A DNA stretch of 64,000 nt. Origin: an uncultured virus (IMG/VR IMGVR_UViG_3300001605_000029). Taxonomy: Duplodnaviria > Heunggongvirae > Uroviricota > Caudoviricetes. The stretch spans positions 1 to 64,000 of the IMG/VR virus record IMGVR_UViG_3300001605_000029. One strand, 5' to 3'. The notes under the pieces were generated by a model, which saw only the letters and a list, made by a program, of their open reading frames with translations, did no database searches and was not told the DNA's origin. Shown here in pieces: positions 1 through 39,884 of the stretch (positions are counted from its first letter, which is position 1; each line of letters starts with the position of its first letter). Made by a program: the position numbers and the translations under genes.

Positions 1-39
1 CTGTGCCAACCCAGACCAATTACGGGATCTAAGTTGACA

Positions 40-63
40 CTATCGTTTACCTGAACGTTTCAT
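40..63 (-). CDS. Putative leader minigene MKRSGKR(TAG)
   Basis: ATG at 63, GAGGT Shine-Dalgarno at 70-74, directly behind a consensus promoter; frame stays open past the TAG to the window edge. Confidence 0.35.
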   Translation of the reverse strand: MKRSGKR

Positions 64-91
64 GTCATTACCTCTTTTGTTTAAAAAATTA

Positions 92-120
92 ATTATACAA
101 CCTTTTGCAGTAGTTGTCAA
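92..120 (-). promoter_or_regulatory. sigma70-type promoter
   Basis: TTGACA-17 bp-TATAAT, perfect consensus. Confidence 0.8.
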
Positions 121-129
121 CTGTTTTCT

Positions 130-204
130 TGGCGCCCACATATGGAATCGAACCACAATCCCCGGCTTCGTAGACCAGTGTATTATCCATTATACTATGC
201 GGGC
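130..204 (-). tRNA. tRNA-Arg(ACG)
   Basis: Cloverleaf, loop CTACGAA, TTCGA T-loop, encoded CCA. Confidence 0.9.
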
Positions 205-209
205 AAAAT

Positions 210-280
210 TGGTTGCGGGGGAAGTATTCGAAACCTCTGGGCCGAGCTTATGAGACTGACCGATCGCCTGAATCCCCGCA
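210..280 (-). tRNA. Atypical tRNA-Met/fMet-like (CAT)
   Basis: TGCGGGG/CCCCGCA acceptor, loop CTCATAA, CCA; reduced D-arm and weak anticodon stem. Confidence 0.6.
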
Positions 281-286
281 ATACAC

Positions 287-357
287 TGGTGCACCTAACG
301 GGAATCGAACCCGTCTACTTCTGGCTTCAAATCCAGCTAGTAAACCATTCCAGCGCA
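287..357 (-). ncRNA. Degenerate tRNA-like RNA (TTG-containing loop)
   Basis: Good T-arm (ACGGG TTCGATT CCCGT) and CCA; imperfect acceptor, no clear D-arm, irregular anticodon loop. Confidence 0.5.
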
Positions 358-363
358 TAAATC

Positions 364-617
364 TGGCTTCGTTAGCAGGACTCGAACCTGCGATAAGGGC
401 TCTAAATCGCGTATGCTGGGTGCCCCCGTGTTTCCCAAAGTTACCCTCACATCCCCTCAGCGCCTTATCTCACTTTCGTCTATTGCAACCTGTTCCGCAC
501 TTCCCGGACTCACAGTGTTTGGTTTTTTACAGCCTACGCGATTGTTATTGCAATATCTTACTGGTGCCTTATCTCACCTACTCAATGCTACTCTACCTTC
601 CTCTACACTATAACGAA
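364..617 (-). ncRNA. 254-nt tRNA-like RNA with large structured insert
   Basis: 5' TTCGTTA pairs with 3' TAACGAA-G-CCA; T-arm GCAGG TTCGAGT CCTGC; insert contains AATCGCGTA/TACGCGATT and repeated GTGAGATAAGGC. Confidence 0.65.
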
Positions 618-624
618 ATAAACT

Positions 625-702
625 TGGTGGACGATAGTGGAATCGAACCACTGCCACGGCAGGGTTACTGCCGCCTGTTATCCTTTACAACAGTCATCGC
701 CC
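625..702 (-). ncRNA. tRNA-like RNA with G3.U70 acceptor and non-canonical anticodon arm
   Basis: GGGCGAT/ATCGTCC-A-CCA, T-arm, 5-bp D stem, 7-bp stem GCGGCAG/CTGCCGT around TAACC. Confidence 0.65.
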
Positions 703-788
703 ATATAGAAACACACTATGGGAGGGTCCATAGTCATACCCGAAACCTAGCGTCGGGGCACATCACCTCAATCGGCGTGCTTTTATAT
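703..788 (-). ncRNA. Structured RNA with AAAGCACGC/GTGTGTTT closing stem (copy A)
   Basis: Long terminal helix plus internal hairpins CCCGA/TCGGG and CTATGG/CCATAG. Confidence 0.5.
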
Positions 789-928
789 GGTGTAGTAAAC
801 AGGATTCGAACCTGCCTAGTCATCCGTTTTCTTCAATGGGTAACGTTACCTCCCATCGCCATATGCCCCTCGGATTAATTAGATCCTACTCACATACAGA
901 CAAACAACTTGTCAACCAAACTTACCAC
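788..928 (-). ncRNA. 141-nt tRNA-like RNA with G3.U70 acceptor
   Basis: GTGGTAA/TTACTAC-A-CCA and T-arm GCAGG TTCGAAT CCTGT; enlarged body without canonical anticodon arm. Confidence 0.65.
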
Positions 929-934
929 ATAAAT

Positions 935-1010
935 TGGTGGAAGATATCGGAATCGAACCGATCAGGCTATCTGCTTGCAAAGCAAATCCGGGTGCCCAAG
1001 CCCATCCCCC
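935..1010 (-). tRNA. tRNA-Ala(TGC)
   Basis: Loop TTTGCAA, G3.U70, CCA. Confidence 0.88.
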
Positions 1011-1026
1011 ATTTAAAAACTCTTTG

Positions 1027-1102
1027 CTCCGCATCTGGGTAACGATCCCAGCTAAACACGGATTAACAGTCCGGCCCATGCACCATGCTCGGGTTCTGCG
1101 GA
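1027..1102 (-). tRNA. tRNA-Asn(GTT), no encoded CCA
   Basis: Loop CTGTTAA, T-loop ATCGTTA, flanking inverted repeat. Confidence 0.75.
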
Positions 1103-1125
1103 GCAAAGAATTCTCTTTGCGTGTT

Positions 1126-1200
1126 TGGCGGTCCCAAGGGGTAACGATCCCCTTCTTCTAGCGTGACAGGCTAGTGTGCGTCCATGAACACTTTGAGACC
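1126..1200 (-). tRNA. tRNA-Asp(GTC)
   Basis: Loop CTGTCAC, T-loop ATCGTTA, G discriminator, CCA. Confidence 0.85.
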
Positions 1201-1298
1201 TAAATTCAGACCCTTGTTTTGATAAAGCAGACAATGGCTAGATTTTACTGCTTTTACTCTACACACTTTTCTTTGTGTAAAAACTCTTTCGAGATTCT

Positions 1299-1385
1299 TG
1301 GTGGAGACGACTGGAGTCGAACCAGTAGTGCCTTTCGGGCGGCGGATTTACAGTCCACTGGGGTTACCAATTTTCCTACATCTCC
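1299..1385 (-). tRNA. tRNA-Tyr(GTA)
   Basis: Loop CTGTAAA, long variable arm, CCA. Confidence 0.9.
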
Positions 1386-1392
1386 ATAAACT

Positions 1393-1442
1393 TGGTGGAG
1401 GTCGTTACACTTATCAAGTGTCGGTGATTAGCCTTGACCCCC
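1393..1442 (-). ncRNA. 50-nt mini-tRNA lacking a T-arm
   Basis: GGGGGTC/GACCTCC-A-CCA acceptor (G3.U70) and ACAC TTGATAA GTGT anticodon-like hairpin. Confidence 0.6.
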
Positions 1443-1449
1443 ATAAACT

Positions 1450-1525
1450 TGGCGCCGTCGACGGGAATCGAACCCGCCTAAATCTGATAGACAATCAGGT
1501 GCCCTACCCAGAGGACTACAACGGC
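1450..1525 (-). tRNA. tRNA-Asp(GTC), second copy
   Basis: Loop TTGTCTA (pyrimidine at 37), CCA. Confidence 0.85.
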
Positions 1526-1530
1526 AAAAC

Positions 1531-1629
1531 TAATAACACGAGCATAACATTAACCAGTTATGCTCGCCACTCTCATCCCAAGCCGGCGGGGAGACTGAAT
1601 GCCATCCTACAGTACGTCGAGTGTTGTTA
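1531..1629 (-). ncRNA. Structured RNA with AACAACAC/GTGTTATT closing stem (copy D)
   Basis: Terminal helix plus 9-bp hairpin GAGCATAAC/GTTATGCTC. Confidence 0.45.
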
Positions 1630-1632
1630 ACT

Positions 1633-1707
1633 TGGTACTCCGGACGGGTATCGATCCCGCTTCTCCACCTTGAAAGGGTAGCGTCCTAGCCACTAGACGA
1701 CCGGAGT
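1633..1707 (-). tRNA. tRNA-Glu(TTC)
   Basis: Loop CTTTCAA, T-loop ATCGATA, CCA. Confidence 0.87.
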
Positions 1708-1712
1708 ATAAT

Positions 1713-1825
1713 TCACTATATGCAAACACACTAAACAAATCGTGCCTCCCTAGTTTGTCGCTAAGTTCCAACATGAGGATCAAGTACGGTTCGGCGTACC
1801 ACGATAGTGTGTTTACATATAGTGA
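1713..1825 (-). ncRNA. Structured RNA with 21-bp closing stem (copy B)
   Basis: TCACTATATGTAAACACACTA/TAGTGTGTTTGCATATAGTGA with internal ATCGTG/CACGAT and GTACG/CGTAC helices. Confidence 0.55.
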
Positions 1826-1893
1826 CTGCTTCCCAGCAGTATATATGTATTTTACGTTTTTAAAGAACACAGTTAATTTCTTAACATGTGTTT

Positions 1894-1922
1894 ATTGTAG
1901 CAAAGTTTTTTGACTTTGTCAA
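1894..1922 (-). promoter_or_regulatory. sigma70-type promoter inside tRNA array
   Basis: TTGACA-17-TACAAT. Confidence 0.7.
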
Positions 1923-1960
1923 TAAGTATTTTGTTGTACTTTTACAACACTACTAACACT

Positions 1961-2034
1961 TGGTGCGGGGTAAGGGAATCGAACCCTTAACTACTGGGTG
2001 GAAGCCAGTGATCTTACCATTAAACGAACCACGC
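1961..2034 (-). tRNA. tRNA-Gly(TCC)
   Basis: Loop CTTCCAC, CCA. Confidence 0.9.
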
Positions 2035-2041
2035 ATACGTT

Positions 2042-2116
2042 TGGCCCCTGAGGTTACTGTCGAAAGTAACATTCCCAACTATTAACAAGGCTTGCGCGGG
2101 CCTGTCAAACTCAAGG
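2042..2116 (-). ncRNA. Aberrant tRNA-like RNA
   Basis: CCTTGAG/CTCAGGG-G-CCA acceptor, T-like arm GTTACT TTCGAC AGTAAC, one long hairpin replacing the D and anticodon arms. Confidence 0.5.
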
Positions 2117-2123
2117 ATAAAAT

Positions 2124-2199
2124 TGGTGCAACCTGTAGGGATCGAACCTACTTCAATGGCTCTTCAGACCACCGCTATGACCACATCAGCTAAAGTTGC
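2124..2199 (-). tRNA. tRNA-Phe(GAA)
   Basis: Loop CTGAAGA, CCA. Confidence 0.9.
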
Positions 2200-2205
2200 A
2201 TTGTT

Positions 2206-2279
2206 TGGTGCCCCATGACAGAATCGAACTGCCGTAACCTGATTACAAAACAGGTGTAATGCCATTATACTAATAGGGC
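2206..2279 (-). tRNA. tRNA-Thr(TGT)
   Basis: Loop TTTGTAA, CCA. Confidence 0.9.
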
Positions 2280-2284
2280 GAAAT

Positions 2285-2362
2285 TGGAATAGCGGGTGAG
2301 ATTCGAACTCACGGTTTTACGGATTTGCAATCCGATGCATTGGGCCTCTCTGCCACCGCTAC
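2285..2362 (-). tRNA. tRNA-Cys(GCA)
   Basis: Loop TTGCAAA, U discriminator, CCA. Confidence 0.88.
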
Positions 2363-2371
2363 ATAAAAGCT

Positions 2372-2447
2372 TGGTCTCCATACTAGGATTCGAACCTAGA
2401 CCACACGACCCCAAATCGCGGATGCAACCAGGTAACACTTTACGGAG
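2372..2447 (-). tRNA. tRNA-Pro(TGG)
   Basis: Loop TTTGGGG, CCA. Confidence 0.9.
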
Positions 2448-2457
2448 ATATAAAATT

Positions 2458-2531
2458 TGGTTCCTCCAACAAGAATCGAACTTGTAATGACCGGTTATCA
2501 GCCGATTGTTATACCATTTAACTATAGAGGA
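2458..2531 (-). tRNA. tRNA-Ile(GAT)
   Basis: Loop CTGATAA, CCA. Confidence 0.88.
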
Positions 2532-2543
2532 ATAAACTTATTA

Positions 2544-2618
2544 GGGGTGACCTACGGGTACCGACCCCGTTCTATCACTTTCACAGAGTGAGGTGCTAAA
2601 CCTTTACACTAAGGCCAC
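2544..2618 (-). tRNA. tRNA-His(GTG), atypical
   Basis: Loop CTGTGAA, C discriminator; ends CC(T), T-loop GTCGGTA, no encoded G-1. Confidence 0.75.
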
Positions 2619-2638
2619 ACCTAATAAGTCTAATAATT

Positions 2639-2712
2639 TGGCACGGGAACTAGGGCTCGAACCTAGAACGACAGAGTCAAAGTCTGTTGTGTTACCATTA
2701 CACCATTCCCGA
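2639..2712 (-). tRNA. tRNA-Gln(TTG)
   Basis: Loop CTTTGAC, CCA. Confidence 0.88.
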
Positions 2713-2720
2713 ACAAAACT

Positions 2721-2794
2721 TGGCGTACCCACTAGGACTCGAACCTAGACTGACGGTTTTGGAGACCGCGATGCTGCCATTACACTATGGATAC
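2721..2794 (-). tRNA. tRNA-Trp(CCA)
   Basis: Loop CTCCAAA, CCA. Confidence 0.9.
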
Positions 2795-2801
2795 ATTAAC
2801 T

Positions 2802-2875
2802 TGGTGCGGGGTAAGGGAATCGAACCCTTGACTGAACGTTGGCAACGTTCGGTTATACCATTTAACTAACCACGC
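2802..2875 (-). tRNA. tRNA-Gly(GCC)
   Basis: Loop TTGCCAA; acceptor/T-arm identical to Gly(TCC) copy. Confidence 0.9.
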
Positions 2876-2882
2876 ATTGAAT

Positions 2883-2972
2883 TGGCGGAGCGTGATGGAA
2901 TCGAACCATCACCGGCTACAAACCAGTGGAACAGTTTTCAAGGCTGCTTGTTCACCATGAACTCCACACTCC
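2883..2972 (-). tRNA. tRNA-Ser(TGA)
   Basis: Loop CTTGAAA, long variable arm, CCA. Confidence 0.88.
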
Positions 2973-2980
2973 ATAACTTT

Positions 2981-3058
2981 TGGTCTCCATGGCACGATTC
3001 GAACGTGCAGCCTCCTCGTTCCAAACAAGGCCGTCTACCAGATTGACATTACACAGAG
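2981..3058 (-). tRNA. tRNA-Pro(TGG), second copy
   Basis: Loop TTTGGAA (A37), CCA. Confidence 0.85.
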
Positions 3059-3066
3059 ATTAAATT

Positions 3067-3141
3067 TGGCTCCCCAGCGTGGGATCGAACCACGGACCAA
3101 TTGATTAACAGTCAACTACTCTACCGCTGAGCTACAAGGGA
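3067..3141 (-). tRNA. tRNA-Asn(GTT), second copy
   Basis: Loop CTGTTAA, CCA. Confidence 0.92.
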
Positions 3142-3148
3142 ATAAATT

Positions 3149-3223
3149 TGGTACCGGATGCGAGATTCGAACTTGCGACCAACGCCTTATCAAGGCGCTG
3201 CTCTACCACTGAGCTAACCCGGT
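3149..3223 (-). tRNA. tRNA-Ile(GAT), second copy
   Basis: Loop TTGATAA, CCA. Confidence 0.9.
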
Positions 3224-3228
3224 AAAAT

Positions 3229-3310
3229 TGGTGGATGCGGTAAGATTTGAACTTACACAGTCGAAACGGGAAGGTTACAGCTTCTTGGGCTCGCCAATGC
3301 CAGCACATCC
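3229..3310 (-). tRNA. tRNA-Tyr(GTA), second copy
   Basis: Loop CTGTAAC, long variable arm, CCA. Confidence 0.85.
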
Positions 3311-3313
3311 AAA

Positions 3314-3388
3314 TATTCTAAAACACACTATCATCTATGATGCGACACTTGATTCAGAGTCAAGCCGTTTTAAGTATGTTTTAGAATA
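3314..3388 (-). ncRNA. Structured RNA with 16-bp closing stem (copy C) carrying an anticodon-like hairpin
   Basis: TATTCTAAAACATACT/AGTGTGTTTTAGAATA enclosing CTTGA CTCTGAA TCAAG. Confidence 0.55.
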
Positions 3389-3389
3389 C

Positions 3390-3530
3390 CCTCTATTGCT
3401 AGAGGATATGTTAGGGTCAATGCCCTAACCAGGAGTCTTACTAATCGGTTATCGCCCGACGTTCATGTATCCTGTCCGCCCATTTACAGCAGTGTTTAGA
3501 GTGCGCTGTCAGGATCTCGTTCCCTGGCCA
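3390..3530 (-). ncRNA. Candidate multi-helix ncRNA at head of tRNA array
   Basis: Nested helices CCAGG/CCTGG, ATCCTG/CAGGAT, ACAGC/GCTGT, TCGG/CCGA, GTTAGGG/CCCTAAC. Confidence 0.45.
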
Positions 3531-3670
3531 TATAGGACTTATTACACACTTTTGCTTTACTTGGCAAGCTCTAAAGCCTGCCTTTCTCGCTGTTTAGCGT
3601 TTACTGAAGTGTACATTTTGTTTCTTTCAATCTTGTCAGCAATTAATTTCTTAAATGCCTCCGGACTTAA

Positions 3671-3699
3671 AGTATAACATCTTGTGTACTCTCTGTCAA
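3671..3699 (-). promoter_or_regulatory. sigma70-type promoter
   Basis: TTGACA-17-TATACT. Confidence 0.7.
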
Positions 3700-3733
3700 C
3701 TACTTTCTTTCTATCTATCATCTTTCCTTGCGG

Positions 3734-3769
3734 AAAACAAAAACCCCAGGGTGTTTAGTCCTGGGGTCC
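3734..3769 (-). terminator. Intrinsic terminator of putative attenuator
   Basis: GGACCCCAGG-loop-CCTGGGGTT followed by TTTGTTTT. Confidence 0.8.
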
Positions 3770-3795
3770 TTTTGAAGTTGCTTGCTAGTTACATT

Positions 3796-3951
3796 TTAGG
3801 CGTAACCTGCTCCTTCTTGGGACCCCTGGGTAATCTCCGGTGTGCGATCATATGATAGACTCCCACACTCAATAGATAACCAATTGGAGGCTACAAAGCC
3901 TGCCTGTTTGGGCATCGTATTAAATTGTTGATGTCTGTTAAACGATTGCAT
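3796..3951 (-). CDS. Putative attenuator leader peptide, 51 aa
   Basis: MQSFNRHQQFNTMPKQAGFVASNWLSIECGSLSYDRTPEITQGSQEGAGYA*; 3' end overlaps an antiterminator helix. Confidence 0.65.
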   Translation of the reverse strand: MQSFNRHQQFNTMPKQAGFVASNWLSIECGSLSYDRTPEITQGSQEGAGYA

Positions 3952-4007
3952 TTTGTTCTCTTTTAAAAACTTTTTACATTGACAGCACCATTGCTGCCTA
4001 TGTTTTA

Positions 4008-4121
4008 ATTGTATATTTATTTAGTCTTGTTGTCAACCACTATTTGCATTTCTGGAAAAATAATTTCTAACAATACTAAACATCATGTGCTTATTGTATG
4101 ATAGTTTTATTTAGCTGTCAA
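4008..4121 (-). promoter_or_regulatory. Tandem sigma70-type promoters upstream of leader
   Basis: TTGACA-17-TACAAT at 4008-4036 and 4093-4121, each with TAAATA in the spacer. Confidence 0.75.
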
Positions 4122-4159
4122 GCAAAAAACTACCATATAATACGGCAAAAATTGCCAAT

Positions 4160-4405
4160 TTACGATTCGCTTGAAATTAGTAAGTGTTTACCAATTTCGA
4201 ACAATCCCACACTTCCCGGAAGATCCATAGCAGCAACATGAATTTGACAAACTCCATCGTCATCCATTGAACATGCTACAAATTCCTTGATCTCACCAGA
4301 TTCGATTCCTGTCTTTATATATTCAATTACTTCAAGCATTGCTTTTTTTTGTTCTTCTTCAAATTGCTTGTCTTTACGCTTGTCGTTGATATTGATAATT
4401 TCCAT
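4160..4405 (-). CDS. Hypothetical protein
   Basis: 81-aa ORF with RBS, downstream of clpP. Confidence 0.75.
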   Translation of the reverse strand: MEIININDKRKDKQFEEEQKKAMLEVIEYIKTGIESGEIKEFVACSMDDDGVCQIHVAAMDLPGSVGLFEIGKHLLISSES

Positions 4406-4414
4406 GTTGCTTCC

Positions 4415-5011
4415 TTAACTTAGTATATAGTCTGCTGCACCTAAGTCAATCATTTCTTTGGCCGTTAAGTAAATATCGGTAGTTGTTAACAGCTTTGATT
4501 TAATTTTAGAAGTACTGAGTCCGGTCATTGTTTGTAAAATTGCCAACATCCTTGCATTACAGTGCTCGCCTTCTTTCATTTGAGCTTTGAGATCATGATG
4601 TTTACCTTCTGTGGCATCACTGTATTGATGGCACATAATTCCAGTGTTGGGTGCTATAAATCGGTTGCCCGGAGTTCCCGAAACAAAAATTAAAAAGGCA
4701 GCGCTCATAATGTTACCGATACCTATAGTTCGAATTGGTACGTGACTGGTCTGCATTATATCAATTAATGCAAACGCTTGATATAGGTCGCCGCCATGAC
4801 TATTAATATAAAGAGTCAGTTCTTTATTTTTGGAAATTTCGATATTTTCATAAGTAATCCATTTGATTGTATCTAGAATATTCTCTTCGGAAATTTCACC
4901 GACTAGAAAGTGTACAGAATTTTCTAGTAGTTTAGAATCGATTCTGTCCTTGGCGTTAAAATCCTCAATTTTTTTCAAGATTGTTCCTTTGGATTCATTA
5001 TTACTTATCAT
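4415..5011 (-). CDS. clpP: ClpP-like protease subunit
   Basis: LYINSHGG, SAAFLIF, IMCHQ motifs; true start may be downstream. Confidence 0.88.
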   Translation of the reverse strand: MISNNESKGTILKKIEDFNAKDRIDSKLLENSVHFLVGEISEENILDTIKWITYENIEISKNKELTLYINSHGGDLYQAFALIDIMQTSHVPIRTIGIGNIMSAAFLIFVSGTPGNRFIAPNTGIMCHQYSDATEGKHHDLKAQMKEGEHCNARMLAILQTMTGLSTSKIKSKLLTTTDIYLTAKEMIDLGAADYILS

Positions 5012-5031
5012 CTAGAACAACTCCGTATCAG

Positions 5032-7273
5032 TTAGTCAAAATCGGATCTCTCGGCGTATTCTTTAAACATACGCATACGACCTGACGGTCCTAGTACATG
5101 ATCGAATATTTCTCTAGTGCGTTGTAACATAGCACAAGCCATTAACAGCATATCGTGTTCGCTGTCACACATCATAATTTGTTGCTCAATAGGAACCATT
5201 AGTTCCTTCATTCTGTTTTCAATATCACTCATGATTTACCTTTGACAGCTGACACATTAATTGGAATTGATCGTATGCGTTCTTGACAGCTTCGTTCTGC
5301 ATCAGTTTGTCTGCTTCTGCTTGCATGGCCTTTATACCCGCTTCTACAATGTCATGAGTGCTGACACCCTGTAGCGTATACATGTCCTGTCCGAATGCTT
5401 TAGCGAGATTTTCCCAAGCTGTACGTTGTTCTTGAGTAATAGGTTGCTTGCTAGGCTTGAGTTCGCTAGCTGTCATCATGGCCTTGCACATGGCATCTTC
5501 AGCTACTCGCCCGGCAGCAATCATAGGTGCTAATGCCGGTTCAATATTAAAACGTCGACTAGTTCCACCAGGATACACCATTACAAGATGATTGCCTTTG
5601 TGAAAACTGTCCATTAGATCGTTGTCATATTCAGCAACAGGCACATACCTGCGACCGACTTTTTCATAATAAATTTTCTTAGTCATTTCTGTTCTATGTG
5701 TGTGTTTGCAATATCATCATAGTTGACCCAACAATCTTTTTCCATATCCCAATGACGATTGTCGTAAATGTTAAAATTAACACTATAACCAAGTAGGCCA
5801 AATTCGAGAGTTAATCCGGCATGATCTCTAAAAAGAGTGCAATCAAGTTCAATAGCAATGAGACTGGCATCTTTCATTATTTGCAGTTCCCAAAACTTAT
5901 TTTTCCAAGGTGTTTTTCCACTCCAACATTTAACGTTGTCAAAGCGGTTACGCCACAATGGATTTTGAACATTGATTCTAAAATAGATCATTTTTCGTAA
6001 ATATGGTTGTTAAATTCAGTAAATCTTGTTACGAAGCTTTCTTCGTAACAGCTAAATTCTCTAGTTGTATTTTCGTCGCTCATACGATCTAGTCGATAAT
6101 AAATCCAATTTTTACCATTTATATTGGTAATATCGATTACAACATATGTTTCGTAATTTGAATCTTTCCATCTACTACCAGGTGTTACCATTGTTTTCTC
6201 CGGTTTTGAATACGTCAGTGGCTTCGGTATCAACATTTTCAACCATATGTACCATAAAACGATATGCATTCCATGCAGTTTTTACTGACTCGTTTGTACT
6301 TAGTTCAGTAGGGAAAATATCAACCCAGATCGAACTTTCAGGCTGTTGATGACGATGCATACCTTGCAGTCTAGGCTGCAAAATACGATTGGTATTCCAT
6401 AGAGCAGTAACTACTTCTTTTGCTTTTTCAATATCACAGCCCAGCAAATATCCACTGCGATAGCTATACTCGTCGATTACACCATCCATATGATCCAAGC
6501 TGTCTACCCTAGTAGCAGTGATTAGAAATGCAACATCATCAATCGCAACATCGCCGTTGACAATATCACGAACACATCGACCGAGGCTAAATCCAATTTT
6601 CATTTTTTAAATTCCATATAGGGTGCAATATCATTATCAAAAATCTGTGCCATTTGTCGCCACAGCGCTTCTCGATCTCCGGGATGCATACCAGAACTCA
6701 ATCGGTCAAAAGCAAAAATTTCGTTAGCATTATTGCTATCAAAGTTCGTAGGCTCTTTGACTAACCCATAGTCATGCTGCATAGTATAACACATACTGGT
6801 AATAATTTCTTCTCTAGTCTTCATGCTATTCTCTTAAGTTTAATAGCTGATGCTAAACGAAAAATATAACGATCCTTGTTGGGACATATGCTGGCAATTT
6901 CGTCATTCTCATCATAGTACATAGATAGATCAGTAAGAATACGAGGCTTCATACGAGTACCCGGATTAGTGATTACTACATCCCAACTATTGGAATTCCA
7001 CATACTGCGTTTTTTGCTAATCGAAAATTCGTAAGTTTTACCCTTGGCTTCTTTAAGAATGTAGTGCTCACCTTTTTTCTTAGATTCCCAAGAAATATTT
7101 TGCATAACTTCATTAACTTTGTCTTTAAATTCTTTTTCTTTTTCTAGTGCTTTTAGTCGATTAGAAATCTGAATCATATCCGAAGTTGTCAAACCCATGA
7201 GTTGACATTGTACAATAATTCGTTCCTGCTTGTCGGTAAGTTTAGCTCGAGTGCGTGGCATAGTATTATTCAA
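5032..7273 (-). CDS. Run of seven overlapping small hypothetical phage genes (5032-5232, 5225-5686, 5683-5991, 5988-6191, 6175-6603, 6600-6824, 6821-7273)
   Basis: Tightly coupled ORFs with stop/start overlaps behind a TTGACA-17-TATTAT promoter at 7291-7319. Confidence 0.75.
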
Positions 7274-39513: not shown

Positions 39514-39540
39514 AAAGAAAAGCACCCAAAGGTGCTTTCT
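39514..39540 (-). terminator. Terminator after tmRNA
   Basis: AAAGCACC TTTG GGTGCTTTT. Confidence 0.8.
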
Positions 39541-39544
39541 ATTA

Positions 39545-39810
39545 TTTTCTGTTACGAGGTATAATTACCCTAAGCAGTGTTTAGGCTGCTAATGCGAACT
39601 GTGAGTCGTTTGCGTTTACTTTGTTGTGCTTCTGCGACCGGGTTACCCCAATCCTAACGGCTTCTACATTGCCGGACTGTCCATTTCCGTACTCTTGACC
39701 CAATCGATAGCCTGGTCATCCCCACCTAAATATACATTATACACTTAGGTGGAGATGGTGGGAGTCGAACCCACGTCTTGAATCCTTTTCTGTCTACTTC
39801 ATACAGTCTT
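39545..39810 (-). ncRNA. ssrA: Circularly permuted (two-piece) tmRNA
   Basis: T-arm/3' acceptor CATCTCC-A-CC precedes 5' GGGGATG (G3.U70); tag frame ANDSQFALAA* at 39581-39613; outer ends approximate. Confidence 0.92.
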
Positions 39811-39884
39811 AACTTACATATAAAAATGTATCCACACAAACGTCACAATTAGAATTGCTACAATAAGGTGGTACAGTTTCATAA

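What the first reader, a model, noticed from the sequence alone, without database searches (positions are those of the whole stretch)
3734..4121. Candidate pan-tRNA-sensing transcription attenuator controlling the phage tRNA array
Seen: tandem promoters (4008-4121) drive a 51-codon ORF (3951-3796). All 20 amino acids appear by codon 35, and I count 37 distinct codons, including five Ser and all four Gly codons. Its 3' end (CCAGGGGTCC..GAAG..GGTTAC) can pair with downstream GTAACT..CTTC..GGACCCCAGG, putting the stop codon in the hairpin loop. GGACCCCAGG is also the 5' arm of a strong terminator (3734-3769), so the two folds are mutually exclusive. Established: trp/his-type attenuators use leader-ribosome position to choose between folds, but sense one amino acid through codon runs. 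Inference: here stalling at almost any codon (e.g. host anticodon nuclease attack or starvation) would free the antiterminator and raise read-through into the tRNA array. Caveat: promoter-like sites at 3671-3699 and 1894-1922 lie downstream and could bypass it.
Basis: partly seen in the sequence, partly recalled or inferred. Interest (0 to 1): 0.88.

Follow-up and report, generated by a model that had tools for sequence, protein, structure and literature searches.

The report
All-amino-acid leader before phage tRNA genes
A family of giant phages puts a short, translated leader that contains every one of the 20 amino acids, wired to an on/off RNA switch, in front of their tRNA gene clusters, which looks like a built-in gauge of the cell's translation supply that decides when the phage makes its own tRNAs.

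Summary
The window is a fragment of a roughly 350-kb phage.

- **Family.** The same module stands in at least 138 related loci: two promoters, a 5' hairpin, a 44-51-codon ORF, a long hairpin holding the stop codon, and an overlapping intrinsic terminator.
- **Link to tRNA genes.** 86 of 87 loci with enough downstream DNA have a same-strand tRNA array 187-1181 nt further on.
- **Composition.** 73 of 94 distinct leader peptides contain all 20 amino acids. Chance gives about 2-3%. Rare residues keep one copy but change position.
- **Drop-outs.** Of 13 cases where a leader lacks an amino acid, 12 stand before an array with no tRNA for it.
- **RNA structure.** Both helices are kept. The shared strand covaries with its antiterminator partner, and the 5' arm is read in two different frames.

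I read it as a ribosome-dependent transcription attenuator. Smooth translation to the stop codon lets the terminator form. A ribosome delayed at any codon leaves the antiterminator and allows read-through.

Nothing was tested experimentally. 19 of 65 loci, this window included, carry a promoter-like site downstream that could bypass the switch. Three literature searches found no description of it.

The parts
4093..4121 (-). Upstream promoter P1 (TTGACA-17-TACAAT)
   Evidence: 11 of 12 matches. In relatives, 53 of 65 loci have two or more sites of at least 10 of 12 within 260 nt upstream of the leader ORF. One class ends 140-159 nt before the ATG.
4008..4036 (-). Proximal promoter P2 (TTGACA-17-TACAAT)
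   Evidence: 11 of 12 matches. The commonest class in relatives ends 50-59 nt before the ATG. 65 of 65 loci have at least one strong site upstream.
3981..3998 (-). Hairpin at the 5' end of the P2 transcript (GGCAGCA..UGCUGUC)
   Evidence: Present in the minimum-energy fold of the whole leader. Relatives have a hairpin of different sequence at the same place; this was read by eye and not quantified.
3796..3951 (-). Leader ORF: 51 codons plus stop, all 20 amino acids, 37 distinct codons
   Evidence: It is conserved as a 44-51-codon ORF in relatives. 73 of 94 distinct peptides have all 20 amino acids. No Pfam or PHROG family matches.
3802..3826 (-). 5' strand of the antiterminator (GGGGUCC, GAAG, GGUUAC), inside the last 10 codons of the ORF
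   Evidence: The GGGUCC arm is invariant or wobble-compatible in 86 sequences. It lies in two reading phases, 27 in phase 0 and 59 in phase 2.
3763..3792 (-). 3' strand of the antiterminator (GUAAC, CUUC, GGACCCC); GGACCCC is also the 5' arm of the terminator
   Evidence: The base helix is paired in 98.8% of 602 cells. Pair 31:102 is A-U in 59, G-C in 18, G-U in 3 and broken in 6.
3734..3769 (-). Intrinsic terminator (GGACCCCAGG, 9-nt loop, CCUGGGGU, U-tract)
   Evidence: The helix is paired in 98.1% of 680 cells, with 11 cells changed on both sides against 1.2 in shuffles. It forms when the 5' strand is masked as by a ribosome at the stop codon, in the nine sequences printed (not tallied for all 86).
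3557..3721 (-). Small ORF (54 aa) whose Shine-Dalgarno sequence and ATG follow the U-tract directly; the first gene under the switch
   Evidence: 52 of 67 distinct downstream regions in relatives have an ORF of at least 40 codons starting within 50 nt after the terminator match. Most are of this family, 49-60 aa with a KLIQDKF-like motif. No Pfam, PHROG or Atlas match.
3671..3699 (-). Promoter-like site (TTGACA-17-TATACT with a TG extension) inside the 54-aa ORF; a possible bypass of the switch
   Evidence: 11 of 12 matches. 19 of 65 related loci have a site of at least 10 of 12 between the terminator and the first tRNA. 46 have none.
130..3223 (-). tRNA array, 21 genes, cut by the end of the contig
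   Evidence: All 18 distinct anticodons held have a cognate codon in the leader, against 13.6 expected in equal windows of other genes.

Best explanation
This is a ribosome-dependent (leader-peptide) transcription attenuator at the head of the phage's tRNA operon.

**Proposed mechanism**
1. Host RNA polymerase starts at two sigma-70-type promoters and transcribes a roughly 47-51-codon leader ORF.
2. The last 7-10 codons of the ORF are the 5' strand of a roughly 20-bp hairpin, the antiterminator. Its 3' strand ends in GGACCC(Y).
3. Those same bases are the 5' arm of an intrinsic terminator.
4. If a ribosome follows the polymerase closely and reaches the stop codon inside the hairpin, the antiterminator cannot form. 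The terminator then folds and transcription stops.
5. If the ribosome is absent or delayed anywhere in the first 38 or so codons, the antiterminator forms first. The polymerase then reads through into a small protein gene, a conserved non-coding stretch and the tRNA genes.

The leader holds every amino acid, and in particular a codon for nearly every tRNA species encoded behind it. A shortage of any one charged tRNA should therefore delay the ribosome. The result would be demand-driven feedback on phage tRNA synthesis.

**Shown here:** the anatomy, its conservation, the covariation, the composition, and the link to tRNA arrays.
**Inferred:** translation of the ORF, the direction of the switch, and what it senses.
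For: **Conservation of the module**
Together with the first set of loci, that makes 138 elements.
- The ORF keeps its start, frame and stop.

**Link to tRNA genes**
- 86 of 87 elements with at least 1500 nt held downstream are followed by a same-strand tRNA array 187-1181 nt after the terminator. The exception is L082.
- Where the array lies 3 kb further from the neighbouring ClpP gene, the ORF has moved with it.

**Switch**
- In 86 of 86 distinct sequences the stretch from GGGUCC to GGACCC folds as one hairpin. It has 20.5 bp on average and -24 kcal/mol. Its z-score is -3.5 against shuffles of its interior.
- The stop codon lies 14-27 nt after the 5' arm.
- The minimum-energy fold holds the antiterminator in 67 of 86. 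In the nine sequences printed, masking the 5' strand gives the full terminator; this was not tallied for all 86.
- RNAalifold picks the antiterminator base helix.
- The base shared by both helices (column 102) covaries with its antiterminator partner: A-U 59, G-C 18. 18 cells are changed on both sides, against 4.9 +/- 1.8 in shuffles (0 of 500). Pairing falls to about 60% when the partner is slid by one column.
- The terminator helix likewise has 11 such cells against 1.2.
- GGGUCC is read in two phases, as Gly-Ser or as Arg-Val-Arg, so the constraint is on the RNA.

**Composition**
- 73 of 94 distinct peptides have all 20 amino acids.
- Controls: 2.0% of 47-residue windows of this phage's proteins, 3.2% for random draws from the family's own composition, 11% for a uniform composition.
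- Further controls: 15 of 544 mechanical ORFs of equal length in the same loci, and 0 of 51 peptides of the neighbouring small-ORF family.
- Shuffling residues within alignment columns gives 13.7 +/- 3.1 all-20 peptides against 70 of 83 observed (maximum 23 in 1000 shuffles).
- Cys is single-copy in 87% of peptides but sits at 8 or more different columns. Tyr is at column 45 or column 30.
- Among representatives under 50% identical, 12 of 19 have all 20, against a conditional expectation of 0.066.
- An independent protein search gave 53 of 64 clusters with all 20.
- Peptide constraint is weak: median dN/dS 0.73, and equal entropy at the three codon positions.

**Match to the array**
- In 25 leader/array pairs taken as complete, amino acids absent from the leader lack a downstream tRNA in 12 of 13 cases. 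Amino acids present lack one in 136 of 462 (Fisher p 6e-6).
- An internal leader lacking Asp, Leu and Tyr precedes 16 tRNAs with none for these, and all 16 have a cognate codon in it. No further tRNA follows in that contig.
- A 35-codon leader with 8 Ser and 7 Leu precedes Ser, Arg, Leu, Leu, Leu, Cys, Gly and Ser tRNAs.
- A leader covers its own array's anticodons better than other leaders do: 0.936 against 0.903, higher in 21 of 25, pairing permutation p 0.001.
- Synonymous codon diversity is above expectation: window 37 against 33.2 +/- 1.9, family mean z +1.3.

**RNA libraries**
- Contigs of relatives in three metatranscriptome runs of three studies cover the leader, and two bridge the terminator.
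Against: - No experiment was done. Translation, termination and read-through are all inferred.
- 19 of 65 loci, this window included (3699-3671), have a strong promoter-like site between the terminator and the first tRNA. Several are perfect 12 of 12 matches about 35 nt before the first tRNA. The array need not depend on read-through there.
- The window's array also has internal promoter-like and terminator-like sites.
- 21 of 94 peptides lack one to several amino acids. At least 4 of these are cut by locus ends, but close relatives of the window lack Val.
- Two leaders break the drop-out rule. L137 lacks Val, and it is the single exception among the 13 cases counted. L157 lacks Cys and Trp and was outside that count. 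All three tRNAs are encoded downstream.
- Leader codons are not enriched for codons read by the array's tRNAs: 0.66 against 0.67. tRNAs with C at position 34 (Leu-CAA, Lys-CUU, Arg-UCG) are usually not represented.
- Most amino acids appear once or twice. Classical attenuators need runs of regulatory codons to be sensitive, so mild shortage of one tRNA may not be sensed.
- A conserved peptide motif (W..., S-L-S-Y/N-D-R-T-P-E) is not explained by a pure composition rule.
- Counts across relatives are not phylogenetically independent.
- For one leader (L101), Cys and Leu tRNAs do exist 2.4-3.5 kb further on, behind three protein-sized ORFs.
- No upstream partner for the 5' strand was established. 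The design therefore predicts read-through without translation, unlike trp.
Confidence: 0.7

Rival explanations
1. The same switch, but the signal lies in the nascent peptide. The conserved W...SLS(Y/N)DRTPE segment, just before the antiterminator's 5' strand, would arrest or pause the ribosome in response to a small molecule or factor. The all-amino-acid content would be secondary.
For: - Trp24, Asp35, Arg36 and Pro38 are invariant in the first 13 sequences and nearly so in 84.
- There is synonymous variation at the Arg, Pro and Glu codons. That points to constraint on the peptide or the codon rather than on the nucleotides.
- A ribosome with Pro in its P site would end just before GGGUCC. 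This is geometry inferred.
Against: - The motif is absent in divergent members that keep the switch and the all-20 content (for example L097, L100, L184).
- This reading explains neither the relocation of rare residues nor the match between dropped amino acids and missing tRNAs.
- Part of the conservation may come from single-copy residues (Trp, Asp) that the composition rule itself protects.
- Part may come from a possible RNA helix between the Trp codon region and the NDRTPE codons.
Confidence: 0.1
2. The ORF encodes a small protein with a function of its own, for example acting on tRNA or on defence. The hairpin and terminator would be an ordinary 3' end, and the tRNA array would be transcribed from its own promoters.
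For: - The ORF is conserved and gene callers predict it in 64 protein clusters.
- Promoter-like sites lie downstream of the terminator in 19 of 65 loci.
- A conserved peptide motif exists.
Against: - Median dN/dS is 0.73 and entropy is equal at all codon positions.
- The C-terminal part is read in two frames over a conserved RNA arm.
- All-20 content with relocating residues is not expected of a folded 47-residue protein.
- The strand shared between hairpin and terminator covaries with the hairpin partner.
- 46 of 65 loci have no strong promoter before the tRNAs.
Confidence: 0.08
3. The conserved hairpins are processing or stability signals of the tRNA precursor, such as nuclease sites or a 5' cap-like structure. 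The ORF would not be translated.
For: The whole leader is strongly structured (z -3.84). A further conserved non-coding element lies before the first tRNA in 68 of 70 intervals.
Against: - An untranslated region would not keep an ATG, an open frame of 44-51 codons and a stop at a fixed place in the hairpin in 86 of 86 sequences.
- Nor would it keep all 20 amino acids.
Confidence: 0.04

Closest known systems
Leader-peptide transcription attenuators of amino-acid operons (trpL, hisL, pheL, thrL, leuL, ilvL). Their general features are recalled. The abstracts of PMC1183508 and PMC3082878 were seen in search listings.
   Same: A short translated leader ORF. An intrinsic terminator. An alternative antiterminator that shares a strand with the terminator. 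A stop codon placed so that a ribosome finishing the leader blocks the antiterminator. Ribosome delay gives read-through.
   Different: There is no run of codons for one amino acid; instead all 20 are present, mostly once or twice. No anti-antiterminator (segment 1) was established, so the untranslated state should read through. The genes controlled are tRNA genes and a small protein, not biosynthetic enzymes. It is carried by a phage.
pheM leader of the pheST (phenylalanyl-tRNA synthetase) operon (recalled, no call)
   Same: Leader-peptide attenuation applied to a gene of the translation apparatus rather than to biosynthesis.
   Different: It senses one amino acid through Phe codons and controls a synthetase, not tRNA genes.
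Ribosome-mediated attenuators that sense general inhibition of translation, such as the bmrB leader of bmrCD in Bacillus subtilis (PMC4191407; abstract seen in the listing)
   Same: The leader ORF reports ribosome progress in general rather than one amino acid. Stalling favours the antiterminator.
   Different: Those respond to ribosome-targeting antibiotics and control resistance genes. I do not recall, and found no report of, a requirement for all amino acids in their leaders.
T-box riboswitches
   Same: Transcription antitermination that responds to the state of tRNA.
   Different: T-box RNAs bind one uncharged tRNA directly through a specifier codon and need no ribosome. No Rfam family other than tRNA matched in 1-6000 at a meaningful score.
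Phage tRNA sets as a counter to tRNA-cleaving defences (PMC10264068 and PMC11555353; titles and starts of abstracts seen)
   Same: They give the likely biological reason for making phage tRNAs on demand.
   Different: As far as their titles and the start of their abstracts show, these papers concern the tRNAs themselves. I read no more of them and saw no mention of a regulatory leader.

Membership tests
Leader-peptide (ribosome-dependent) transcription attenuator | Short leader ORF with a start codon, upstream of the regulated genes and conserved as an ORF | tested here: met
   51 codons in the window. 44-51 codons with conserved start, frame and stop in relatives. Translation itself was not tested.
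Leader-peptide (ribosome-dependent) transcription attenuator | Intrinsic terminator between the leader and the regulated genes | tested here: met
   Located at 3769-3734. The helix is 98.1% paired in 86 sequences, with compensatory changes.
Leader-peptide (ribosome-dependent) transcription attenuator | Antiterminator helix mutually exclusive with the terminator | tested here: met
   GGACCC(Y) is shared by both helices. The base helix is 98.8% paired, with 18 cells changed on both sides against 4.9 in shuffles. In the nine sequences printed, the full terminator forms when the 5' strand is masked (not tallied for all 86).
Leader-peptide (ribosome-dependent) transcription attenuator | Leader ORF overlaps the antiterminator so that ribosome position selects the fold | tested here: met
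   The 5' strand lies within the last codons. The stop codon lies 14-27 nt after the arm and inside the hairpin in 86 of 86.
Leader-peptide (ribosome-dependent) transcription attenuator | Clustered regulatory codons for the sensed amino acid | tested here: not met
   No runs. All 20 amino acids are present, and most rare ones occur once. One divergent 35-codon member is rich in Ser (8) and Leu (7) before Ser and Leu tRNAs.
Leader-peptide (ribosome-dependent) transcription attenuator | Upstream segment that pairs with the antiterminator's 5' strand (pause or anti-antiterminator hairpin) | tested here: inconclusive
   RNAalifold on 84 ORFs proposes a helix between the Trp-codon region and the NDRTPE codons. 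It shows hardly any covariation and does not involve the 5' strand.
Leader-peptide (ribosome-dependent) transcription attenuator | Read-through responds to translation of the leader | not testable with these tools
   Needs reporter, Term-seq or in vitro assays.
T-box riboswitch | Match to the T-box leader model (specifier loop, T-box sequence) | tested here: not met
   An Rfam scan of 1-6000 at E up to 1 gave only tRNA and chance-level hits.

The most novel reading that the evidence does not exclude
The leader is a per-species gauge of the tRNA pool that co-evolves with the operon it controls. Every tRNA gene in the array is represented by at least one codon in the leader. Loss or cleavage of any single tRNA, for instance by a host anticodon nuclease, or exhaustion of the host pool late in infection, would stall the ribosome and switch on synthesis of the phage's replacement tRNAs. 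Recovery would switch it off again. Split arrays carry separate leaders tuned to their own tRNA subsets.
Probability: 0.4. Interest if true: 0.92.

Novelty: new variant of a known kind. Interest (0 to 1): 0.86.

Why it matters
- Known leader-peptide attenuators sense one, or at most a few, amino acids and control biosynthetic or charging enzymes.
- A leader selected to contain all 20 amino acids, placed before tRNA genes and losing an amino acid almost only where the array lacks that tRNA, would be the first attenuator built to monitor the whole decoding supply.
- It would also be the first known regulator of a phage tRNA array.
- It bears on why large phages carry near-complete tRNA sets, because it suggests they are made on demand.
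- It offers a compact natural sensor of translational stress that could be tested directly in laboratory strains, because its promoters and terminator are of the ordinary bacterial type.
- It gives a simple, searchable signature for finding similar sensors elsewhere: a short ORF with all 20 amino acids, with its stop codon inside a hairpin that overlaps a terminator.

Tried and rejected
- **GenBank phage records.** blastn of 3200-4500 and tblastn of the leader peptide found nothing. The neighbouring ClpP-like protein has only relatives under 41% identical. No cultured relative could therefore be used.
- **Related loci from the peptide alignment.** This failed for lack of a conserved stretch. 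I used a DNA motif of the terminator region instead.
- **RNA contig depth.** In metatranscriptome run X18, summed contig depth is 130-370 over 3715-3960 and 0-2 over 3551-3714. That would fit an abundant terminated leader RNA. However, contig depth cannot rank parts of a stretch, an uncovered part proves nothing, and DNA may be present in RNA libraries. I do not count this as evidence.
- **Enrichment for array-read codons.** I tested whether leader codons are enriched for codons read by the array's tRNAs. They are not: 0.66 against 0.67.
- **Other all-20 ORFs.** The 15 other all-20 ORFs of similar length in the loci are not further leaders. None has the terminator motif behind it, and many lie antisense to tRNA genes.
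- **The 54-aa ORF.** Pfam, PHROGs and the protein Atlas gave nothing.
- **The conserved non-coding element before the first tRNA.** It does not fold better than shuffles in the window (z +0.41).
- **A conserved hairpin inside the ORF.** One was predicted, but with almost no covariation.
Full report
**What the window is**

The window is the first 64 kb of a 72-kb IMG/VR virus record estimated at about 20% complete. Related contigs reach 364 kb, and one is rated complete. This is therefore a fragment of a roughly 350-kb phage.

All genes near the finding lie on the minus strand. In order of transcription they are:
- a ClpP-like protease gene (4415-5011; Pfam CLP_protease, E 1e-31);
- an 81-aa ORF;
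- the region of the finding;
- a 54-aa ORF;
- 21 tRNA genes (3223-130), which run into the contig end.

**The observation**

- Two TTGACA-17-TACAAT sites lie at 4121-4093 and 4036-4008.
- The ORF 3951-3796 has 51 codons. All 20 amino acids are reached by codon 35. It uses 37 distinct codons, including five Ser and four Gly codons.
- Its 3' end (GGGGUCC 3826-3820, GAAG 3816-3813, GGUUAC 3807-3802) pairs with GUAAC 3792-3788, CUUC 3777-3774 and GGACCCC 3769-3763. The stop codon 3798-3796 lies in the loop.
- GGACCCC is also the 5' arm of a terminator that ends in a U-tract at 3734.

Taken alone, the window is suggestive but not compelling.
- All-20 content is found in 3.3% of 51-residue windows of the phage's own proteins.
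- 37 or more distinct codons occur in 0.2% of 50-codon windows.
- The switch segment folds no better than shuffles (z -1.18), although the whole leader does (z -3.84).

**Relatives**

No GenBank phage record resembles the region.

The ClpP-like protein brought in 76 IMG/VR loci. A tblastn run in a script found the leader ORF in 18 of them. All 18 have a same-strand tRNA array behind it. In two loci where the array lies further from ClpP, the ORF has moved with it.

The sequences showed a constant terminator region. I scanned IMG/VR for that DNA motif, which says nothing about the peptide.

Together, 138 elements were found in the 196 records held. They give 94 distinct peptides under a fixed rule: the longest ATG ORF whose stop lies within 60 nt upstream of the motif.

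**Link to tRNA genes**

- Of 87 elements with at least 1500 nt held downstream, 86 are followed by a same-strand tRNA array starting 187-1181 nt after the terminator. L082 is the exception.
- Some contigs have two elements, the second inside the array.

**The RNA switch**

For 86 distinct sequences I examined the stretch from 42 nt before the stop codon to the U-tract. Elements with no ORF, with an ORF under 40 codons, or cut by a locus end were dropped, and duplicates were collapsed. I did not count each class separately.

- In 86 of 86, the part from GGGUCC to GGACCC folds as one hairpin of 17-25 bp. The mean energy is -24 kcal/mol, and the mean z is -3.5 against shuffles of its interior.
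- The distal stem differs in sequence between subfamilies but stays paired.
- The stop codon lies 14-27 nt after the 5' arm, within the distal stem or loop.
- The minimum-energy fold of the whole segment contains the antiterminator base helix in 67 of 86. In the other 19 it does not, and in the two of those that were printed the terminator forms instead. The two states are therefore close in energy.
- In the nine sequences printed, the full terminator forms when everything up to 12 nt past the stop codon is held single-stranded, as under a terminating ribosome; this was not tallied for all 86.
- RNAalifold on the alignment chooses the antiterminator base helix.

Counting pairs on the alignment gave the following.

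| Helix | Cells paired | Cells changed on both sides | Same in shuffles |
|---|---|---|---|
| Antiterminator base | 98.8% of 602 | 18 | 4.9 +/- 1.8 (0 of 500 reach it) |
| Terminator | 98.1% of 680 | 11 | 1.2 +/- 1.0 (0 of 500 reach it) |

Pairing of the antiterminator helix falls to about 60% when the partner is slid by one column.

The informative position is the base after GGACCC.
- In the terminator it pairs with G or A whether it is U or C.
- In the antiterminator it changes together with its partner: A-U in 59, G-C in 18.
- The antiterminator pairing is therefore selected in its own right.

GGGUCC is decoded as Gly-Ser in 27 sequences and as part of Arg-Val-Arg in 59. It is therefore conserved as RNA, not as peptide.

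**The peptide**

*Weak constraint on sequence*
- Over 84 distinct ORFs of 43-52 codons, the three codon positions vary equally (entropy 1.06, 1.00, 1.10).
- Median dN/dS up to the conserved Pro is 0.73.
- The sequence of the peptide is therefore only weakly constrained, apart from Trp24 and a segment S-L-S-Y/N-D-R-T-P-E.

*Strong constraint on composition*
- 73 of 94 distinct peptides contain all 20 amino acids.
- Of the 21 that do not, at least 4 are cut by a locus end. Most of the rest have 18 or 19 kinds.

*Controls*

| Control | All-20 share |
|---|---|
| 47-residue windows of this phage's proteins | 2.0% |
| Random draws from the family's own composition | 3.2% |
| Uniform composition | 11% |
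| Mechanical ORFs of 43-52 codons in the same loci | 15 of 544 (none of them a further leader) |
| Neighbouring small-ORF family | 0 of 51 |

*Relocation of rare residues*
- The property does not come from conserved columns. Shuffling residues within alignment columns leaves 13.7 +/- 3.1 all-20 peptides, against 70 of 83 observed (maximum 23 in 1000 shuffles).
- Cys is present exactly once in 87% of peptides but at eight or more different columns.
- Tyr sits at one of two columns, and two near-identical peptides differ by just that swap.
- His occupies eight or more columns.

*Independence*
- Among representatives less than 50% identical to each other, 12 of 19 have all 20 and the rest have 18 or 19.
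- I kept the residues each shares with the window and redrew the others. The mean expectation of all-20 is then 0.066.
- A search of the large protein collection gave 64 clusters. 62 of them were not in the first set, none has any name beyond 'hypothetical protein', and 53 have all 20. Some carry N-terminal extensions from the gene caller. Close relatives of the window that lack Val are among the misses.

**Leader and array vary together**

- In 19 loci with 20 or more tRNAs, the leader holds a cognate codon for 90% of the array's anticodons, against 73% for equal windows of other genes.
- The share of leader codons readable by the array's tRNAs is not raised (0.66 against 0.67).
- The anticodons left out are nearly always those with C at position 34: Leu-CAA, Lys-CUU, Arg-UCG.
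- Among 25 leader/array pairs with at least 400 nt held after the last tRNA, a leader covers its own array better than other leaders do. The figures are 0.936 against 0.903, higher in 21 of 25, with a pairing permutation p of 0.001. Shared ancestry of codon usage could contribute to this.

The clearest signal comes from the leaders that lack an amino acid. In those 25 pairs, 12 of 13 absent amino acids have no tRNA in the array behind. Of amino acids present in the leader, 136 of 462 lack one (odds ratio 29, Fisher p 6e-6).

*Examples*
- An internal leader that follows Ser, Glu, Tyr, Asp, Met, Ile and Asn tRNAs lacks Asp, Leu and Tyr. It precedes 16 tRNAs with none for these. All 16 have a codon in its 43 codons, and a whole-contig scan shows no tRNA beyond.
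- Its relative lacks Asp and Tyr but has Leu. Its array has a Leu tRNA and none for Asp or Tyr, including the two further tRNAs found beyond the held locus.
- In the same contig as the first example, a 35-codon leader with 8 Ser and 7 Leu precedes Ser, Arg, Leu, Leu, Leu, Cys, Gly and Ser tRNAs.

*Against*
- Two leaders break the rule. L137 lacks Val, and it is the single exception among the 13 cases. L157 lacks Cys and Trp and was outside that count. All three tRNAs are encoded downstream.
- For L101 (lacking Cys and Leu), such tRNAs exist 2.4-3.5 kb further on, behind three protein-sized ORFs.
- The related leaders among these cases are not independent events. The 13 cases come from five unrelated kinds of leader.

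**Codon level**

Given its peptide, the window's ORF uses more different codons than the phage's codon usage predicts (37 against 33.2 +/- 1.9, p 0.035). 94% of 84 family members lie above expectation, with mean z +1.3. The effect is consistent but small.

**Promoters and bypass**

- In 65 distinct loci, all have at least one site of 10 of 12 or better within 260 nt upstream of the ORF.
- 53 of them have two or more, at stereotyped distances. The density is 7.4 per kb against 0.49 in the background.
- Between the terminator and the first tRNA, 46 loci have none and 19 have one or two.
- Several of these are perfect consensus sites about 35 nt before the first tRNA.
- The window's own site is at 3699-3671, inside the 54-aa ORF.

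In about three loci in ten, the array could therefore be transcribed without passing the switch.

What lies directly behind the terminator is an ORF of at least 40 codons in 52 of 67 distinct loci, starting within 50 nt of the terminator match. Most are a 49-60-residue ORF of one family, with a good Shine-Dalgarno sequence directly after the U-tract. After it comes a conserved non-coding element, present in 68 of 70 intervals.

**Expression**

Four metatranscriptome runs of four studies held small shares of the stretch.
- In three of them, contigs 85-99% alike (relatives) cover the leader ORF.
- Two of those contigs bridge the terminator: X17 covers 3673-3858 and X19 covers 3710-4036.
- This shows that such sequence occurs in RNA libraries, no more.

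**Mechanism proposed**

*Shown:* the promoters, the ORF, the two competing helices, their geometry and their conservation.

*Inferred:*
- The antiterminator's 3' strand is made before the terminator's 3' arm. An unoccupied leader therefore folds into the antiterminator and the polymerase reads through.
- A ribosome that keeps pace with the polymerase occupies the 5' strand and the distal stem while it finishes the last codons and sits at the stop. GGACCC is then left free for the terminator.
- The time the ribosome needs for the first 38 or so codons therefore decides the outcome.
- A leader that samples every amino acid, and nearly every tRNA species of the operon, makes that time depend on the scarcest charged tRNA.
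- With mostly single codons, the device should respond best to severe loss of a tRNA, or to a general slowing of elongation, rather than to mild shortage of one amino acid.
- Severe loss of a single tRNA is what tRNA-cleaving defences would cause. Phage tRNAs have been proposed or shown to counter such defences (PMC10264068 and PMC11555353; titles and starts of abstracts seen).
- The phage also encodes a betaproteobacterial-type tmRNA and a ClpP-like protease. This fits a genome that invests in keeping translation running.

**Comparison and novelty**

- The module meets the structural criteria of a leader-peptide attenuator.
- It lacks the run of regulatory codons, and an upstream partner for the 5' strand was not established.
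- It is not a T-box.
- Three full-text searches found no description of such a leader. Their term sets were: leader peptide, all 20 amino acids, attenuation, tRNA; phage, tRNA array, leader, terminator; and leader peptide, all twenty amino acids, transcription attenuation, phage-encoded tRNA.
- The library lacks most subscription journals, so this is not proof of absence.
- I class the module as a new variant of a known kind of regulator, with an unusual and clearly selected design.

Noticed in passing
window 39516-39860 (-): The phage fragment carries a tmRNA gene. Rfam beta_tmRNA scores 115.6 bits (gathering score 84), and ARAGORN gives the tag peptide ANDSQFALAA. This suggests a betaproteobacterial host and, together with the tRNA array and the ClpP-like gene, a set of genes devoted to translation.
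   Followed up: partly
window 4415-5011 (-): A ClpP-like protease gene (Pfam CLP_protease, E 1e-31) lies two genes upstream of the leader. It is conserved at 38-67% identity in 76 IMG/VR loci. Many of these have no tRNA array next to it.
   Followed up: partly
window 3557-3721 (-): A 54-aa ORF starts directly after the terminator's U-tract. An ORF of at least 40 codons starts there in 52 of 67 distinct related loci. Most belong to one charged family of 49-60 residues with a KLIQDKF-like motif. It has no Pfam, PHROG or Atlas match. It is the first gene that read-through would express.
   Followed up: partly
window about 3470-3545 (-): A conserved non-coding element lies between the small ORF and the first tRNA. 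It is an AACGAG loop closed by a 3-bp helix that covaries (for example C-G, G-C, U-G, U-A), flanked by AAAGUG...GCACU and AAACGGGCGG. It is present in 68 of 70 distinct intervals. It has no Rfam match, and the window copy does not fold better than shuffles.
   Followed up: partly
window 3232-3310 (-): A weak tRNA-like match (Rfam tRNA 27 bits, just under the gathering score of 29) lies directly upstream of the first called tRNA. ARAGORN does not call it.
   Followed up: no
L125 and L090 (one contig, G001 85.4-96.3 kb): The array is split into sections, each with its own leader and terminator. A 35-codon leader rich in Ser and Leu precedes Ser, Arg, Leu x3, Cys, Gly and Ser tRNAs. A plain terminator-like hairpin follows. 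Six more tRNAs come next. Then a 43-codon leader lacking Asp, Leu and Tyr precedes 16 tRNAs.
   Followed up: yes
window 1894-1922, 92-120 (-); 1538-1567, 715-734 (-): There are promoter-like sites (11 and 12 of 12) and terminator-like hairpins inside the window's tRNA array. The array is therefore probably transcribed in more than one unit. The 250-nt gap at 1708-1960 has a promoter-like site (1922-1894). I read it by eye and noticed no leader ORF of this kind; it was not scanned for one.
   Followed up: partly
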